The position numbers were made by a program, and so were the translations under genes. 40,674 nucleotides of DNA from a virus, in the IMG/VR virus record IMGVR_UViG_3300043932_000061; one strand, 5' to 3'. Below the pieces are notes generated by a model. That model did not search any database. It was given only the letters and a program-made list of their open reading frames with translations, and was not told the DNA's origin. Positions 302 through 40,674 of the stretch are shown here, in pieces (position 1 is the first letter of the stretch; each line of letters opens with the position of its first letter).

Positions 302-306
302 AACTT

Positions 307-402
307 GGCTCGTTGGTCAAATGGCTAAGAAATGGGTGGATTAACTGACAAGGTAGTTGCCCTTTAACGGTGGAGTTACAAGTTCAATTCTTGTACGAGC
401 TA
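307..402 (+). ncRNA. tRNA-like module with an insertion in the D region
   Basis: Acceptor GGCTCGT/ACGAGCT (G1.U72). T arm ACAAG-TTCAATT-CTTGT. Two alternative internal folds: TAACT/AGTTG with 8-nt loop, or TTGCC/GGTGG with 7-nt loop CTTTAAC. Confidence 0.45.
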
Positions 403-420
403 TTAGATCTAAAATAAAAA

Positions 421-500: not shown

Positions 501-574
501 GGTAACTTAGCTCAGTTAGTAGAGCATTGGTGTGAAGTACCAAGCTAGCGATGGTTCGATCCCATCAGTTGCCA
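501..574 (+). tRNA. tRNA, anticodon GAA (Phe-like), with atypical positions
   Basis: Full cloverleaf read by hand: acceptor GGTAACT/AGTTGCC, D arm GCTC-AGTTAGTA-GAGC, anticodon arm TTGGT-GTGAAGT-ACCAA, 6-nt variable loop, T arm GATGG-TTCGATC-CCATC. Deviations: A at a conserved D-loop G, G32, and no encoded CCA. Confidence 0.6.
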
Positions 575-611
575 TAGGAGGCTGATCACCTCCACGATTC
601 ATGAAAAGGGT

Positions 612-682
612 AGCGATATAGCTTAATCGGTGGAGCGGGCCGTGAAAACGGCTGCGGGGCGGTTCGAATCCGTCTATCGCTA
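612..682 (+). tRNA. tRNA-like gene with a shortened anticodon loop (TGAAAA; GAA-type)
   Basis: Acceptor AGCGATA/TATCGCT, D arm GCTT-AATCGGTG-GAGC, T arm GGCGG-TTCGAAT-CCGTC. The anticodon stem GGCCG/CGGCT encloses only 6 nt, and can also fold as GCCGT-GAAA-ACGGC. Confidence 0.5.
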
Positions 683-717
683 TTGCTGGAACAACCAGCT
701 TTCAATTTATTCATCTC

Positions 718-750
718 AAAGAGTAATTATTTTTTAGTTACTCTTTTTTT
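718..750 (+). terminator. Rho-independent terminator closing the RNA locus
   Basis: AAAGAGTAA/TTACTCTTT 9-bp stem followed by a T-run. Confidence 0.6.
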
Positions 751-761
751 GTTACCTCCTC

Positions 762-822: not shown

Positions 823-1044
823 ATGCCATGGAAACCTGCTAAAATGCTAAGATTTCTGAAAAAACATGGTTTTGTTGAGATTGGAAGATATACTCATAAA
901 GGTACAAGTCACATCAAACTTATCAATCATGAAACAAACCGCTATACCGAAGTTCCTATGCATAAAAGCAAAGAGCTTAAAAAAGGTATGGAGGCAGGAA
1001 TCTTAAAGCAAGCTGGTTTGACCAAAGAAGCACGTTCTAAGTAA
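823..1044 (+). CDS. hicA: HicA-family mRNA interferase toxin
   Basis: ORF 793..1044, with the best SD (GAGGAGG) before the ATG at 823. The LRFLKKHGF...GSHIK...VPMH..KELKKG..ILKQAGL pattern is typical of HicA/YcfA. Confidence 0.8.
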   Translation: MPWKPAKMLRFLKKHGFVEIGRYTHKGTSHIKLINHETNRYTEVPMHKSKELKKGMEAGILKQAGLTKEARSK

Positions 1045-1067
1045 CGCGCTTTTGGCGTATTCAGATT

Positions 1068-1463
1068 ATGAAGAAACAAGTTTTATATCCTGTAATTGCA
1101 AAAGAATACAATGACGAAGATGGTCATTATTTTGTTATTACGTCTCCTAATGTACAAGGAATGGTTGTTGAAGGAGACACATTAGAGGATGCAGTCGAAG
1201 AGGCAGCAATTGATATTGCTGATTGGTTCGAAGTAAAAGGAAAAGTAGAAGAAGCACAAGATCCTTCTAACTGGTCTTTAGAGAATGATGAAAGATTAGT
1301 TTACGTTCCTGTAAATCTTTCAAAGTTTTATGAAAAATACGGTAAAACAGTAAGAAAGAGCATAACCATTCCTGAATATCTTGCCTTGTGGGCTAAAGAA
1401 AATAAGATTAATGTTTCAAGAGTAGCTTCTGATGCTTTAAGAGGCTTACAAGAAAGCAAATAA
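1068..1463 (+). CDS. hicB: HicB-family antitoxin with a ribbon-helix-helix-like C-terminus
   Basis: N-terminal HicB pattern (YPVI..DG.Y.V..P...G....GDTLEDAVEEA) and C-terminal KSITIPEYL...VSRVASDALRGL. Lies immediately after hicA. Confidence 0.75.
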   Translation: MKKQVLYPVIAKEYNDEDGHYFVITSPNVQGMVVEGDTLEDAVEEAAIDIADWFEVKGKVEEAQDPSNWSLENDERLVYVPVNLSKFYEKYGKTVRKSITIPEYLALWAKENKINVSRVASDALRGLQESK

Positions 1464-8125: not shown

Positions 8126-8924
8126 TTACTATGGTTACTTGCAACAGCATACCTTTTACTTGCTGATTGACGCTTTTAAAAAGCACAAGGGTATGCTTAC
8201 ACGTGTTGATGATAAAAGTATCTTAGAATGGCGTTTAAAGGCACTGGCTGAAATGGGTGGATTAACTGATAAAGTAGTTGACTTTATTGCTAAAAACATT
8301 GGCTATAGTAAACAGGCTATTTATGATCTTATTCAAGGCCAAGGTTTAACAGTTGCTAAAAGAATGAACAGTGAATTATCCACAGCATTAAAGCAACCAA
8401 TGCGAGGTGTGAGTGATGATACAGTAGCAATTATTAATGCTTATGCCGATCAAACCTTTAGAAATGTCAATAACTATGTTAATCAAACGCTGCTAACTAC
8501 TAATGTTCAAAAAAATAGTGCTCTTAAGACCTATCAGCAGATAGTAGACAAGACAGTGCTAGATGTATCTACTGGGAACAAGACAGCCGACAGGGCATTA
8601 AAAGACAACATTCTGCAATGGTATGACAAAGGTCTACCCACAGCCCTAACTGATAGAGGAGGACATGAATGGACGCTAGAAGGCTACACACGAACCGTTA
8701 TTACTTCTACAACACATCGAGTATTTAACGAAGCAAGAGCGCAATCTATGAAAGAGTTCGGAAGTGTGCTTGCTACTATGTCTAGTCATCCAGCAGCAAG
8801 ACCAGCTTGTGCACCTATTCAGGGCAAAGTGGTGTGTATTGTTCCTAAAAGTGATCCAAAGGCTGATCTTTCGTACCCTAATATTTACGATTATGGATAC
8901 GGCAAGCCGGCCGGCACACAGGGT
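8076..8924 (+). CDS. Minor head / head morphogenesis protein (SPP1 gp7 / Mu F-like), exon 1
   Basis: Lies after the portal gene. The reading frame stops 2 codons past the predicted 5' splice site. It ends ...YDYGYGKPAGTQG, just before the family's conserved NC(R/S)H motif. Confidence 0.75.
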
Positions 8925-14089: not shown

Positions 14090-14100
14090 GAGGTTAGTCA

Positions 14101-14529
14101 ATGTCAATTATTGATTTAGATAAGCGAATTAAAGTAGATAACAAGGTAGATGTTAAGCTGGCTGGCAAGACTTATAAGATCTTGTTTGATGATAATTTTC
14201 AAAAGACTGTAGCAAAAGCTTCTGTTGAAGTCATGAACGGTCTTAAAGCTTTAGATGATCCAAACTGGGAAGATAAAGATATGGCTGTTCAAAAGAAAGA
14301 CGTAGAGAATAGTTTCAACTCTGTGAAAGCGTCAGCTATTTCAGCATTGGATAAACTCTTGGGCAATGGAGAAGGTAAGCGACTTTACAATTATTACAAC
14401 TATTCAACTGATGCCTTAGGTGCTGTACTAAATGCTTTAAATGATGAAGCGATTAAATCTGTTGAAGTTAAGGAAAAGAAGCGCAAGAAACTTAAGCACT
14501 TAGCTACTCCTACCTCAGCAAGAAGTTAA
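14101..14529 (+). CDS. Tail assembly chaperone
   Basis: Position between the major tail protein and the tape measure. Confidence 0.55.
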   Translation: MSIIDLDKRIKVDNKVDVKLAGKTYKILFDDNFQKTVAKASVEVMNGLKALDDPNWEDKDMAVQKKDVENSFNSVKASAISALDKLLGNGEGKRLYNYYNYSTDALGAVLNALNDEAIKSVEVKEKKRKKLKHLATPTSARS

Positions 14530-14533
14530 AACT

Positions 14534-15151
14534 ATGTTAAGTCTAACTGATACGCCTTTATCAGCTATCAAGTTTGACGGAGAGACATATCAAATAAATT
14601 TGGCTTTTGATAACGTAATCAAGTATTTAGAGCTAGTAGAAGATGATAGTGAAAACAAGGAACTAGAAGCCCTTAAATTATTCTTTGGCAACCAAGAAAT
14701 ACCTTTAGATCCTGATTTTATTGAGAGCAGTTTCAAGTTAATCAACGAAACCATTACTAAATCAGCATATCAAGGTAGTTCTTCGGAGGATTGGAGCATG
14801 AATATAGCACCACAGCATATTTACTCATATAAGCAAGATGCTGATGCTATTTACTCTTCTTTTATGATGCAGTATCACATAGACCTTCTTAAAGAGCGCG
14901 GAAAAATGCACTGGTGTGTATTCCGTGCTCTTTTTGATGGACTGAATGAAGATACACCAATCCAAAGAATAATTGAACTAAGACAAAAGAATTTAACCGA
15001 TGTACCCGATGAACAACTAGGCAAGGTAATGCAACTTCAACAGTATTACGCTTTGAAGTTAAAGAAACCTAAGACTGAAGAAGATGTCTTTAACAGTAGT
15101 TCCTTATCATCTGCCTTTGCTTCCTTGATAAATACAGCGAAAGGAGGTTAG
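14534..15151 (+). CDS. Tail assembly protein (Gp15-like)
   Basis: Position immediately upstream of the tape measure. Confidence 0.5.
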   Translation: MLSLTDTPLSAIKFDGETYQINLAFDNVIKYLELVEDDSENKELEALKLFFGNQEIPLDPDFIESSFKLINETITKSAYQGSSSEDWSMNIAPQHIYSYKQDADAIYSSFMMQYHIDLLKERGKMHWCVFRALFDGLNEDTPIQRIIELRQKNLTDVPDEQLGKVMQLQQYYALKLKKPKTEEDVFNSSSLSSAFASLINTAKGG

Positions 15152-28350: not shown

Positions 28351-28516
28351 CGGCTAAAAATGGCTAAAAAGAATTGCTGAATTATAAAGACATAAAACAA
28401 TGAATGCTGGTGCATCAATATTTTAAGTGCTTTATGTAAACATAAATAATCAAACACTGAAACCTGTACTCTCCTTATTTGAATAAAGGAATGTTGATAT
28501 AGCAACGTTTTAAGTA

Positions 28517-39599: not shown

Positions 39600-40142
39600 G
39601 TGGAACACAAAAACATTGATTTAGGGCTAAGTATGAACATGGAAAAGACTGCAAGACGGGTTACAGGCTTTCTTAAGTACGCGTTTCCAGAGTATGTAAA
39701 AGGTGCTGCTCTTAGCTTAGACGATCTAGCTGGCCAACCTTTTACAGGGATGCCAGCATCTCACAGTGCTACTAACTCGCAAGAGAAAAAGCTAGACCGA
39801 GCTTGGAAGAAAGTTGAAAAGAACGAGCTTAAAGCAGCAACCGTTTATCAAACTATATTGCTATGCCAAAAGAGTCCTACATATCCGTATCAGCAAATAC
39901 TTCTCAACAAATTCGTAAAAAAGCTTCCTGATTGGAAGATACAGCCGATAGTAGGGTATTCTAACAGCCAGTATTATTTAAAGCGCAGAGACGCCTTATG
40001 TGAGTTTGCTGAATTGCTTAATTCCAAGAAGGTAAAAAATGGGTGTTTCGATATACCTGATTTAGTCATTGAGATTGAACCAGAACCGGAAAAAAGTAAA
40101 TCGGACGATCACCGGACAGTTTCCGGACACTTATCGGATTGA
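39600..40142 (+). CDS. arpU: ArpU-family late transcription regulator
   Basis: Last gene of the early module. The EKTARRVTGFLKYAFPEY... and ...YQQILLNKFV layout fits recalled ArpU-family phage regulators. Confidence 0.65.
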   Translation: MEHKNIDLGLSMNMEKTARRVTGFLKYAFPEYVKGAALSLDDLAGQPFTGMPASHSATNSQEKKLDRAWKKVEKNELKAATVYQTILLCQKSPTYPYQQILLNKFVKKLPDWKIQPIVGYSNSQYYLKRRDALCEFAELLNSKKVKNGCFDIPDLVIEIEPEPEKSKSDDHRTVSGHLSD

Positions 40143-40155
40143 AACCATGGTAAAT

Positions 40156-40193
40156 TGTTATTGTCGAAAAAATAAAAAGTTTCGACAATAACA
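40156..40193 (+). terminator. 14-bp perfect hairpin after arpU (terminator-like, no clear U-tract)
   Basis: TGTTATTGTCGAAA / TTTCGACAATAACA with a 10-nt A-rich loop. Confidence 0.45.
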
Positions 40194-40547
40194 CCCTTTC
40201 AAACAAGGAAGATCCTAGAATCCTCCAAGAATTTTTAGTAATTACAATTTTAGATCTTTATTCAAGATCTCCTAGTACATCAACCATTATTTGTTTATCT
40301 CTGTCAAATAGTCTCATGATTGATGTGCAGCAGCATTTAGGTTCGATTCCTACTTGTTGCTTACCTAGGCCACGCTACGACCTAGGATTAAATATGCGAT
40401 GACCCCACGCTCGGGCGAGCGTGTTGTAGTTAAGAGTTGGCTAGTCGTTCAGCGGACTGCGCGATAGCCGTGGGCAGTACGACACAATTGGAATTTTAGA
40501 AAGAAAGCAGGAATTTTCTTTCACAATATGAAGTGGGTTCGATTCCC
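40194..40547 (+). ncRNA. 5' part of the ORF-free structured RNA locus (continues at 1..751)
   Basis: No ORF >=60 aa on either strand. Consecutive helices: 40252-40270, 40330-40360, 40364-40386, 40406-40423, 40439-40469, 40471-40557. Confidence 0.55.
40330..40360 (+). ncRNA. Acceptor/T-arm minihelix (tRNA top-half-like)
   Basis: GCAGCA (40330-35) pairs with TGTTGC (40355-60, one G.U). TAGG/CCTA stem closes T loop TTCGATT (40342-48). Confidence 0.4.
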
Positions 40548-40557
40548 CGCCTGCCCA
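40471..40557 (+). ncRNA. tRNA-shaped element with no canonical D or anticodon arm
   Basis: 7-bp acceptor TGGGCAG/CTGCCCA. T stem GTGGG/CCCGC with 8-nt loop TTCGATTC. Central 8-bp helix GAAAGAAA/TTTCTTTC (40499-40522) with 8-nt loop GCAGGAAT. Confidence 0.45.
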
Positions 40558-40674
40558 TTGCCTGTCGGAAAGCAGGCGTAAAAATAATATTATTCAGATC
40601 ACGAATATATTTTGTTTGTCTGATTTTAATTTACAGAATTGCATCTGGTTTAGCTCTGTACCTAACAGAGCATT
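40548..40674. repeat. Second copy of the 127-nt terminal overlap
   Basis: Identical to 1..127. Confidence 0.95.

What the first reader, a model, noticed from the sequence alone, without database searches (positions are those of the whole stretch)
501..682. Two adjacent near-canonical tRNAs, both with GAA-type anticodon loops that deviate from the canonical 7-nt pattern
The element at 501-574 folds as a full cloverleaf with loop GUGAAGU (anticodon GAA, Phe). It has G32, an A in place of a conserved D-loop G, and a 6-nt variable loop.

The element at 612-682 has excellent acceptor, D and T arms, but its anticodon stem encloses only UGAAAA (6 nt). It can also close into a GAAA tetraloop.

Two neighbouring Phe-like genes with altered anticodon loops are unusual. 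Phage tRNAs are known to replace or evade host tRNAs that are cleaved by anticodon nucleases. Altered-loop variants could therefore be nuclease-resistant substitutes or decoys. That interpretation is an inference.
Basis: partly seen in the sequence, partly recalled or inferred. Interest (0 to 1): 0.6.

Follow-up and report, generated by a model that had tools for sequence, protein, structure and literature searches.

The report
Phage tRNA-Phe plus non-decoding tRNA mimic
A Lactobacillus phage carries a working-looking phenylalanine tRNA with a loop variant found here almost only in viral DNA, next to a conserved tRNA-shaped RNA whose decoding loop is too short to read codons, so the pair may show how phages reshape tRNAs for uses other than ordinary decoding.

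Summary
Both elements are real. ARAGORN and Rfam call tRNAs at 501-574 (53.5 bits) and 612-682 (45.1 bits).

**501-574** is a selection-maintained tRNA-Phe(GAA).
- Nine variants in L. gasseri/johnsonii phages are 99% paired, with three compensated pairs.
- Its loop has the normal 7 nt.
- G37 is the host norm: the L. johnsonii tRNA-Phe loop is UUGAAGC.
- The true oddity is purine-32 opposite U38 (GUGAAGU).
- That loop occurs in 49 viral contigs (43 distinct tRNA-Phe sequences). It was absent from 400 other Bacillota genomes.
- A18 is private to this phage.

**612-682 ("X")** is not a Phe gene.
- I found 12 variants in about 30 loci. All have a 5-6-nt loop whose sequence drifts (UGAAAA, UUAAAA, CUAAAA, UGACGA, GACAA).
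- The stems, the D/T-loop core, U-1, A73 and U74 are kept.
- X stays about 89% identical where both flanks are unrelated.
- It is always the last gene before a terminator.

X is therefore most likely a tRNA-derived, non-decoding RNA that is matured like a tRNA. Its job is unknown; a processing or end-protecting module, or a decoy, are the candidates.

The nuclease-evasion idea is plausible for Phe but untested. X cannot be a substitute tRNA. The scan had already noted remodelled tRNA modules at 128-495 of this same window.

The parts
501..574 (+). Phage tRNA-Phe(GAA) gene, with no encoded CCA. T precedes position 1 and T follows A73.
   Evidence: ARAGORN. Rfam 53.5 bits. Family alignment A3 is 99% paired, with compensated pairs at 3-70, 29-41 and 31-39.
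532..538 (+). Anticodon loop GUGAAGU: G32, U33, GAA, G37, U38. G32.U38 can extend the stem to 6 bp.
   Evidence: Host loop is UUGAAGC. 44 of 45 distinct host tRNAs have a pyrimidine at 32. The loop occurs in 49 viral contigs and in 0 of 400 other Bacillota genomes.
518..518 (+). A at the conserved G18 position of the D loop. This change is private to this phage and an identical metagenome copy (L029).
   Evidence: Alignment A3. Variant list.
577..593 (+). Spacer hairpin GGAGG-CTGATCA-CCTCC between the two genes. It is shared with Lj771 and L015 and replaced by other sequence in JNU_P11.
   Evidence: Read from the sequence. Alignment A1.
612..682 (+). X: tRNA-shaped, non-decoding RNA gene. It has a 7-bp acceptor stem, a D arm with G18G19, a 5-bp 'anticodon' stem, a 4-nt variable loop, a T arm with UUCGAAU, and A73.
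   Evidence: ARAGORN 'tRNA-???'. Rfam 45.1 bits. 12 variants are 92% paired. X is 89% conserved between unrelated flanks.
643..648 (+). 6-nt loop UGAAAA of X, closed by G642-C649. It can close further into a GAAA tetraloop.
   Evidence: Homologues have 5-6-nt loops of varying sequence.
683..683 (+). T directly after the discriminator of X. It is invariant in all 30 loci although seven different downstream sequences follow.
685..699 (+). Small hairpin GCTGG-AACAA-CCAGC followed by TTTCAATTT. Analogous hairpins follow X in most relatives.
   Evidence: Terminator scan. Downstream sequences.
719..751 (+). A/T-rich hairpin plus a T run that ends the RNA array, just before the hicAB promoter at 762-790.
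   Evidence: Read from the sequence. Promoter at 762-790. Relatives have clear GC-containing terminators at the same place.

Best explanation
**501-574** is a functional phage tRNA-Phe(GAA).
- Inferred pathway: it is transcribed with the array that lies between the ArpU-like late regulator gene and the late genes. RNase P and RNase Z cut it out (no CCA is encoded, and U follows the discriminator). It receives CCA, is charged by host PheRS (G34 A35 A36, A73), and adds Phe-decoding capacity during infection.
- It belongs to a class found here almost only in viral DNA, in which purine-32 faces a pairable pyrimidine-38 (here G32.U38). This closes the loop by one more pair than in the host tRNA-Phe.

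**612-682 (X)** is a tRNA-derived RNA that has lost decoding.
- Its loop is 5-6 nt and drifts in sequence.
- It keeps the whole tRNA body and the flanking bases that maturation enzymes read.
- It is most likely matured like a tRNA and acts through its shape.
- My preferred role is the terminal processing or end-protecting module of the array transcript (t-element-like). A body-binding decoy is the second choice.

**Shown:** the structures, their conservation, the covariation and the distribution.

**Inferred:** expression, processing, charging and any function of X.
For: **Phe**
- Nine variants are 99% paired, with compensated changes at 3-70, 29-41 and 31-39.
- G37 matches the host loop.
- Position 32:38 is G.U in eight variants and A-U in one.
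- Among purine-32 viral tRNA-Phe arms, 64 of 67 distinct sequences have a base at 38 that can pair with position 32.
- The GUGAAGU loop is in 49 viral contigs. Among 401 Bacillota genomes searched it appears only in the prophage of the centre genome G002. Positive control: 32 of 61 genomes match the scaffold with a pyrimidine at 32.
- The gene is 81-82% identical to Streptomyces-phage and cyanophage tRNA-Phe, against 66% to the host tRNA-Phe.

**X**
- There are 12 variants in about 30 loci. All loops are 5-6 nt, although the search patterns allowed 7 nt or more.
- Pairs 4-68, 7-65 and 50-62 are compensated, and 31-39 is G-C in most variants but U-A in jlb1.
- The anticodon stem is 100% paired, with only wobble-compatible changes.
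- G18G19, the T loop, U8 and A14 are invariant.
- X is 89% identical in 39 locus pairs whose two 80-nt flanks are at random-level identity.
- X diverges only about 1.5 times as fast as the neighbouring Phe gene.
- T at -1 and T at +74 occur in 30 of 30 loci.
- X is always the 3'-most gene, and a terminator follows in most loci.
Against: - There is no expression, processing or charging evidence.
- Eight of the first ten X variants (9 of 12 in A4) carry U6.U67 and G49.A65 mismatches. Their Rfam scores fall to 24-38 bits, as expected under relaxed constraint.
- Pseudo-tRNAs do arise in these arrays: the Gln-like gene of Lj965 with a 6-nt loop, the broken Glu gene of this window, and the remodelled Phe homologue in L066.
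- Lj965 and JNU_P7 do without X.
- RNase P and RNase Z need only the acceptor/T half, so a pure processing role does not explain why the anticodon stem is kept.
- A18 may weaken this phage's own Phe tRNA.
- Some of the covariation could have been imported by recombination between array genes.
Confidence: 0.55

Rival explanations
1. X is a dead tRNA pseudogene with no function. It persists because it is short, recent, and sits between useful elements (tRNA genes and the terminator), or because it serves as a recombination joint.
For: - Mismatches U6.U67 and G49.A65 occur in most variants.
- Loop sequence is unconstrained.
- Other decayed tRNAs lie in the same arrays.
- X is missing from Lj965 and JNU_P7.
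- It is confined to 3 of 99 Lactobacillus species genomes, so the family is young.
Against: - The short loop is ancestral to all 12 variants. Since then the stems have changed only by compensated or wobble changes at 7 or more pairs, and the anticodon stem stays 100% paired.
- X is 89% identical where both flanks are unalignable.
- The boundary bases T-1 and T+74 are invariant across seven downstream contexts.
- There are no indels outside the D loop and the anticodon loop.
Confidence: 0.3
2. First reader's model. The phage tRNA-Phe is a substitute that resists a host anticodon-loop nuclease, and X is a decoy for the same or another tRNA-directed defence.
For: - The loop differs from the host's at positions 32 and 38 only, leaving the anticodon and G37 intact.
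- The purine-32:pyrimidine-38 loop was found in viral contigs and not in the cellular genomes searched.
- PMC10264068 proposes exactly such loop changes in phage tRNAs, and PMC11555353 shows phage tRNAs rescuing retron-mediated tRNA depletion.
- X keeps a full tRNA body without an anticodon, as a decoy would.
Against: - I know of no nuclease that targets tRNA-Phe in these hosts.
- AAA_13 (PrrC/RloC type) passes its cut-off in 1 of 81 Lactobacillus genomes. DUF4435 is absent from the searched lysogen.
- The phage Glu and Tyr loops equal the host's.
- A decoy for a loop-reading nuclease should keep the target loop, yet X's loop is short and variable.
- My two literature searches returned no paper on a phage tRNA-like decoy RNA.
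Confidence: 0.15
3. X still decodes in a non-canonical way. Either the 31-39 pair opens to give an 8-nt loop that reads four bases (+1 frameshift suppressor), or the 6-nt loop causes -1 shifts.
For: - G-UGAAAA-C can be drawn as an 8-nt loop.
- The tail-chaperone ORFs 14098-14529 and 14504-15151 overlap in the +1 frame.
Against: - The 31-39 pair is kept as G-C, G.U or U-A in all variants.
- Loop sequences differ (UGAAAA, UUAAAA, CUAAAA, UGACGA, GACAA), so no common codon could be read.
- The overlap region of the tail genes has no UUU/UUC site.
Confidence: 0.03
4. The tRNA-Phe gene exists to replace a host tRNA gene that prophage integration destroys (tRNA-dependent lysogeny, PMC10865867).
For: PMC10865867 cites earlier reports that Lj965 integration fails to rebuild a tRNA and that the prophage encodes a cognate tRNA.
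Against: - The only host-tRNA match next to the integrase is 13 nt of the 3' end of tRNA-Ser(CGA), at 28463-28475. It is not Phe.
- The phage has no Ser tRNA.
Confidence: 0.03

Closest known systems
Canonical bacterial/phage elongator tRNA-Phe (Rfam RF00005)
   Same: 501-574 has the cloverleaf, a 7-nt loop, U33, the GAA anticodon, A73 and the T loop. It passes the Rfam and ARAGORN thresholds.
   Different: It has G32 paired with U38, whereas 44 of 45 distinct host tRNAs have a pyrimidine at 32. It also has a 6-nt variable loop, and A18 in this phage only.
Phage tRNAs with anticodon-loop changes proposed to evade host tRNases (van den Berg et al. 2023, PMC10264068)
   Same: The tRNA has the same anticodon as the host tRNA but differs from it at loop positions outside the anticodon. 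The variant was found in viral DNA and not in the cellular genomes searched.
   Different: No cognate nuclease or cleavage site is known for tRNA-Phe. The phage is temperate and carries only 1-4 tRNAs. Other tRNAs of the same arrays are not loop-mutated.
tRNA-Ala(GGC) A32-U38 tuning element (Uhlenbeck laboratory work; recalled from memory, not read here)
   Same: There is a Watson-Crick or wobble pair at 32-38 in an otherwise normal elongator tRNA.
   Different: The known case lowers ribosome affinity of a tRNA with a G/C-rich anticodon. Here the anticodon is A/U-rich, so the effect is unpredictable.
Pseudo-tRNA tRNA-Other of Bacillus cereus (PMC3399842)
   Same: It is a tRNA-derived element that does not work in translation yet has been recruited as a tRNA-like module of an RNA.
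   Different: It is chromosomal and flanks an island, not a phage. It is embedded in a larger regulatory RNA. There is no sequence relation, and X's function is untested.
Plant mitochondrial t-elements (PMC1920247)
   Same: These are tRNA-like structures kept as cleavage signals for RNase P and/or RNase Z at transcript ends. X sits at the 3' end of its transcription unit with conserved -1 and +74 bases.
   Different: The organelle and the enzymes differ. t-elements are usually partial tRNA shapes, whereas X keeps all four arms. No cleavage data exist for X.
Streptococcus sRNA SpF41 (Rfam RF02435)
   Same: The architecture is the same: acceptor stem, central hairpin with a short loop, T arm with GGUUCGAAUCC, then a terminator hairpin. 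It is found in strain-specific regions.
   Different: X scores 22.8 bits against a gathering score of 52, so it is not a member. The function of SpF41 is also unknown.

Membership tests
tRNA (RF00005): element 501-574 | Score at or above the gathering threshold, with a full cloverleaf | tested here: met
   53.5 bits against 29. The minimum-free-energy fold is a cloverleaf. The family is 99% paired.
tRNA-Phe decoder: element 501-574 | 7-nt loop with U33, anticodon GAA, and discriminator A73 | tested here: met
   Loop GUGAAGU, A73 at 574. These are invariant in 9 variants.
tRNA-Phe decoder: element 501-574 | Pyrimidine at 32 and G18G19 in the D loop | tested here: not met
   G32 is family-wide (A32 in one variant). 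A18 occurs in the window and L029 only.
tRNA-Phe decoder: element 501-574 | Expressed, CCA-tailed and charged with Phe | not testable with these tools
tRNA (RF00005): element 612-682 | Score at or above the gathering threshold | tested here: met
   45.1 bits. Homologues score 24-45 bits.
Decoding tRNA: element 612-682 | 7-nt anticodon loop with a conserved anticodon | tested here: not met
   The loop is 6 nt here and 5-6 nt in all 12 variants, and its sequence varies.
Frameshift-suppressor tRNA with 8-nt loop: element 612-682 | Positions 31 and 39 unpaired, so that the loop has 8 nt | tested here: not met
   31-39 is G-C in nine variants and G.U in two, and U-A in jlb1.
SpF41_sRNA (RF02435) | Score at or above the gathering threshold of 52 bits | tested here: not met
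   22.8 bits, E = 0.55.
Nuclease-evading phage tRNA (PMC10264068) | Same anticodon as the host tRNA, with loop bases changed relative to the host | tested here: met
   GUGAAGU against host UUGAAGC.
Nuclease-evading phage tRNA (PMC10264068) | A host nuclease that cleaves the corresponding host tRNA loop | tested here: inconclusive
   AAA_13 passes its cut-off in 1 of 81 Lactobacillus genomes. DUF4435 gives no hit in G002. Other tRNase families were not searched, and the true host genome is not held.
t-element-like processing signal | tRNA-like fold at a transcript end, with conserved RNase P/Z context | tested here: met
   X is the last gene before the terminator. T-1 and T+74 occur in 30 of 30 loci.
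t-element-like processing signal | Mapped endonucleolytic cleavage at the element | not testable with these tools
   No reads were available.

The most novel reading that the evidence does not exclude
The two genes form a two-part phage counter-measure against a tRNA-directed host defence. The tRNA-Phe, with its loop closed by a purine-32:pyrimidine-38 pair, would be a cleavage-proof replacement. X would be a matured, undecodable tRNA body that soaks up a nuclease or sensor recognising the tRNA elbow or acceptor. More broadly, closure of the 32:38 pair would be a general phage device for protecting tRNA-Phe.
Probability: 0.1. Interest if true: 0.85.

Novelty: new variant of a known kind. Interest (0 to 1): 0.5.

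Why it matters
Phage tRNAs are now seen as weapons against host tRNA-cleaving immunity, but which sequence features matter is mostly guesswork. This work gives two concrete, testable objects.

1. **A tRNA-Phe loop type (purine-32 paired with pyrimidine-38).** It was found in viral DNA of phages with very different hosts and not in the cellular genomes searched. Position swaps can probe it directly.
2. **A small, conserved tRNA-shaped RNA that cannot decode.** If it proves to be processed and functional, it would be a clear bacterial-virus example of a tRNA body recruited for a non-translational job.

If neither has a phenotype, the locus becomes a well-documented case of tRNA gene decay in temperate phages.

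Tried and rejected
- **8-nt loop / quadruplet reading of X.** Rejected because the 31-39 pair is kept in every variant.
- **GNRA tetraloop as the conserved feature of X.** Rejected. Only the UGAAAA variants can form GAAA; UUAAAA, CUAAAA, UGACGA and GACAA cannot.
- **X as a duplicate of tRNA-Phe.** No support. It matches the phage Phe at 43 of 74 positions and the host Phe at 48 of 73, like other tRNAs. The best-scoring host match to the X covariance model (46.3 bits) is a tRNA with a CAU anticodon.
- **G37 as a phage deviation.** Rejected because the host has it.
- **tRNA-dependent lysogeny.** The attP-like match is to tRNA-Ser(CGA), not Phe.
- **Host anticodon nucleases.** I searched only AAA_13 and DUF4435, and the results were essentially negative.
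- **Rfam beyond tRNA.** There is only a sub-threshold SpF41 match, and nothing in the upstream 40100-40674 stretch.
- **Whole genome of the window.** Not held.
- **The 582-kb metagenome contig carrying the identical prophage (L029).** Not searchable.
- **Ventura et al. 2003 (PMC165743).** Not held.
- **Actinobacterial control for the loop scan.** The scaffold pattern does not match the one Streptomyces genome tried, so 'not in cellular genomes' is shown for Bacillota only.
- **Codon-usage comparison of phage and host.** Not done.

Full report
**Context**

The window is a circularly closed genome of a temperate Lactobacillus gasseri/johnsonii-type phage. Its last 127 bases repeat its first. Its nearest relatives are phi jlb1, Lj771, JNU_P11, KC5a, Lj965 and JNU_P7. 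The two elements lie in a roughly 1.25-kb non-coding RNA locus. This locus sits between the ArpU-like late regulator gene (39600-40142) and the late genes. It ends at an A/T-rich hairpin plus T run (719-751), just before the hicAB promoter at 762-790. Everything below is therefore comparative.

**Observation**

ARAGORN calls tRNA-Phe(gaa) at 500-575 and a 'tRNA-???' with a two-base anticodon (a six-base loop) at 611-683. Rfam's tRNA model scores them at 53.5 and 45.1 bits against a threshold of 29. Both fold as cloverleaves at minimum free energy.
- G32.
- A in place of G18.
- A six-base variable loop.
- The loop UGAAAA, which can close to GAAA.

**The tRNA-Phe gene (501-574)**

Relatives carry variable arrays at the same place: Gln, Glu, Tyr and Phe in different combinations.

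*It is a real, maintained tRNA.*
- Nine distinct variants of the Phe gene are 99% paired. Changes at 3-70 (C-G, U-A, U.G), 29-41 and 31-39 are compensated.
- The loop has the normal seven bases.

*What is and is not unusual.*
- I fetched the tRNA set of an L. johnsonii lysogen. Its own tRNA-Phe loop is UUGAAGC, so G37 is the host norm and not a phage oddity.
- 44 of 45 distinct host tRNAs have a pyrimidine at position 32.
- The true peculiarity is G32 facing U38. It is conserved in eight variants and replaced by A32-U38 in the ninth.
- The minimum-free-energy fold closes this pair, giving a 6-bp stem and a 5-base loop.
- A18 is private to this phage and an identical metagenome copy.

*The loop recurs in other phages.*
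- The same GUGAAGU loop is present in Streptomyces phage Wofford.
- A scan of IMG/VR found it in 49 contigs, on 43 distinct tRNA-Phe sequences with very different acceptor stems and G+C content.
- Among purine-32 viral tRNA-Phe arms, 64 of 67 distinct sequences have a base at 38 that can pair with position 32.

*It was not found in cellular genomes.*
- In 400 other Bacillota genomes the RUGAAGU arm was not found. The only hit was the prophage of the centre genome.
- The same scaffold with a pyrimidine at 32 matches the cellular gene in 32 of 61 genomes.
- The window's gene is 81-82% identical to the Streptomyces-phage and cyanophage genes, but 66% identical to the host gene.

So the loop change is non-random and was seen in viral DNA only. 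It fits the proposal of PMC10264068.

*Why evasion remains unproven.*
- The Glu and Tyr tRNAs of the same arrays have host-identical loops.
- I know of no tRNA-Phe nuclease in these hosts.
- A PrrC/RloC-type ATPase domain passes its cut-off in 1 of 81 Lactobacillus genomes. DUF4435 (the family I took to be PARIS AriB) is absent from the lysogen searched.

Evasion is therefore plausible and untested. Tuning of decoding by the 32-38 pair is an equally open alternative.

**The second element, X (612-682)**

*Distribution.*
- Pattern scans of viral, genome and metagenome collections, plus a covariance model, found homologues in about 30 loci. Those that could be placed are L. gasseri/johnsonii phages or prophages.
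- The model scores 75 bits or more in only 3 of 99 Lactobacillus species genomes. The next best hits, at 48 bits or less, are ordinary tRNAs.

*The loop.*
- There are twelve distinct variants.
- Every one has a 5- or 6-base loop, although the patterns allowed seven or more.
- The loop sequences are UGAAAA, UUAAAA, CUAAAA, UGACGA and GACAA.
- GAA, and the GNRA option, are therefore not conserved.

*The body is conserved.*
- 92% of stem cells are paired.
- Pairs 4-68, 7-65 and 50-62 change on both sides.
- Pair 31-39 is G-C, G.U or U-A.
- The anticodon stem is paired in all variants, with only wobble-compatible changes.
- The D stem, G18G19, U8, A14 and the T loop are invariant.

*X is conserved as a discrete module.*
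- X stays 89% identical in 39 locus pairs whose flanks on both sides are at random-level identity.
- It diverges only about 1.5-fold faster than the neighbouring Phe gene.
- T precedes position 1 and T follows the discriminator in all 30 loci, despite seven different downstream sequences.
- From my own knowledge of Bacillus tRNA maturation, not checked in a paper here, this is the context expected for RNase P and for RNase Z acting on CCA-less precursors.
- X is always the last gene of the array, and a terminator follows in most loci.

*Evidence against strong constraint.*
- Most variants carry U6.U67 and G49.A65 mismatches. The window's copy is the best formed.
- Decayed tRNAs do occur in these arrays.
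- Two relatives lack X.

*Relation to other tRNAs.* X is no closer to tRNA-Phe than to other tRNAs.

**Interpretation**

X cannot decode. An 8-base-loop reading is excluded by the conserved 31-39 pair, and the variable loop rules out a common codon. The short loop is ancestral to the family. Since it arose, the tRNA shape has been kept, which argues for a function carried by the body.

I favour tRNA-like maturation with a role at the end of the array transcript, analogous to t-elements (PMC1920247). A body-binding decoy is second. Simple decay remains a serious rival, at about 0.3. The closest described parallels are the pseudo-tRNA tRNA-Other (PMC3399842) and, by architecture only, the Streptococcus sRNA SpF41. 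X scores 22.8 bits against that family's threshold of 52.

An earlier report of this scan on 128-495 of the same window reached a similar reading for three upstream modules. I confirmed its claim that the broken Glu-like module carries a copy of 8255-8277.

**Verdict**

The Phe loop variant looks selected in phages. X is neither Phe-like nor a possible substitute.
- Novelty: a new variant of known kinds, namely a phage tRNA with an altered loop and a tRNA-derived non-coding RNA.
- Interest is moderate, because both parts are directly testable in laboratory Lactobacillus lysogens.

Noticed in passing
window 306-403 and 8255-8277: The Glu-tRNA homologue of this window is interrupted after the D arm by about 24 nt. 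The stretch 334-356 matches 8255-8277, inside a head-module ORF, with 2 mismatches. Its anticodon reads UUA where relatives have UUC.
   Followed up: partly
window 40334-40362 and 40531-40560: Two more T-arm-like motifs (GGTTCGATTCC inside short stems) lie upstream of the array, between the ArpU-like gene and position 128. L015 has a similar stretch. Rfam finds nothing there.
   Followed up: partly
window 28463-28475: A 13-nt exact match to the 3' end of the L. johnsonii tRNA-Ser(CGA) lies between the lysin and integrase genes. This is a likely attP core, implying integration into that tRNA gene.
   Followed up: no
window 14098-15151: The two ORFs before the tape-measure gene overlap by about 25 nt, with the second in the +1 frame (14504-15151). 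This suggests a +1 (or -2) frameshift rather than the usual -1 for the tail assembly chaperone.
   Followed up: no
L066:1628-1709 (-), prophage of a Lactobacillus species genome (G018): A homologue of the phage tRNA-Phe keeps the acceptor and T arms, but its anticodon arm is remodelled into a 7-bp stem with a loop of about 13 nt and no GAA. It lies next to an X copy with loop UGACGA.
   Followed up: partly
L001:1593-1663 (Lj965): The gene annotated tRNA-Ser in GenBank is a Gln-family homologue with a 6-nt loop and stem mismatches. It is an independent case of a shortened loop in these arrays.
   Followed up: partly
L084 (Streptomyces phage Wofford) and 49 IMG/VR contigs (L086-L129): tRNA-Phe genes with the loop GUGAAGU occur in phages of very different G+C content. 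Position 38 can pair with purine-32 in 64 of 67 distinct sequences.
   Followed up: partly
L056 (G002 contig C9, 3057-3206): The lysogen carries a tRNA-Gln(CUG)/tRNA-Glu(CUC) pair. Its Glu member is 93-95% identical to parts of the window's broken Glu-like module. It may belong to another mobile element.
   Followed up: no
window 824-1463: The hicA/hicB cassette directly downstream is specific to this phage. Relatives have a small hydrophobic ORF (MKFLAIV...) or other genes after the array terminator.
   Followed up: no
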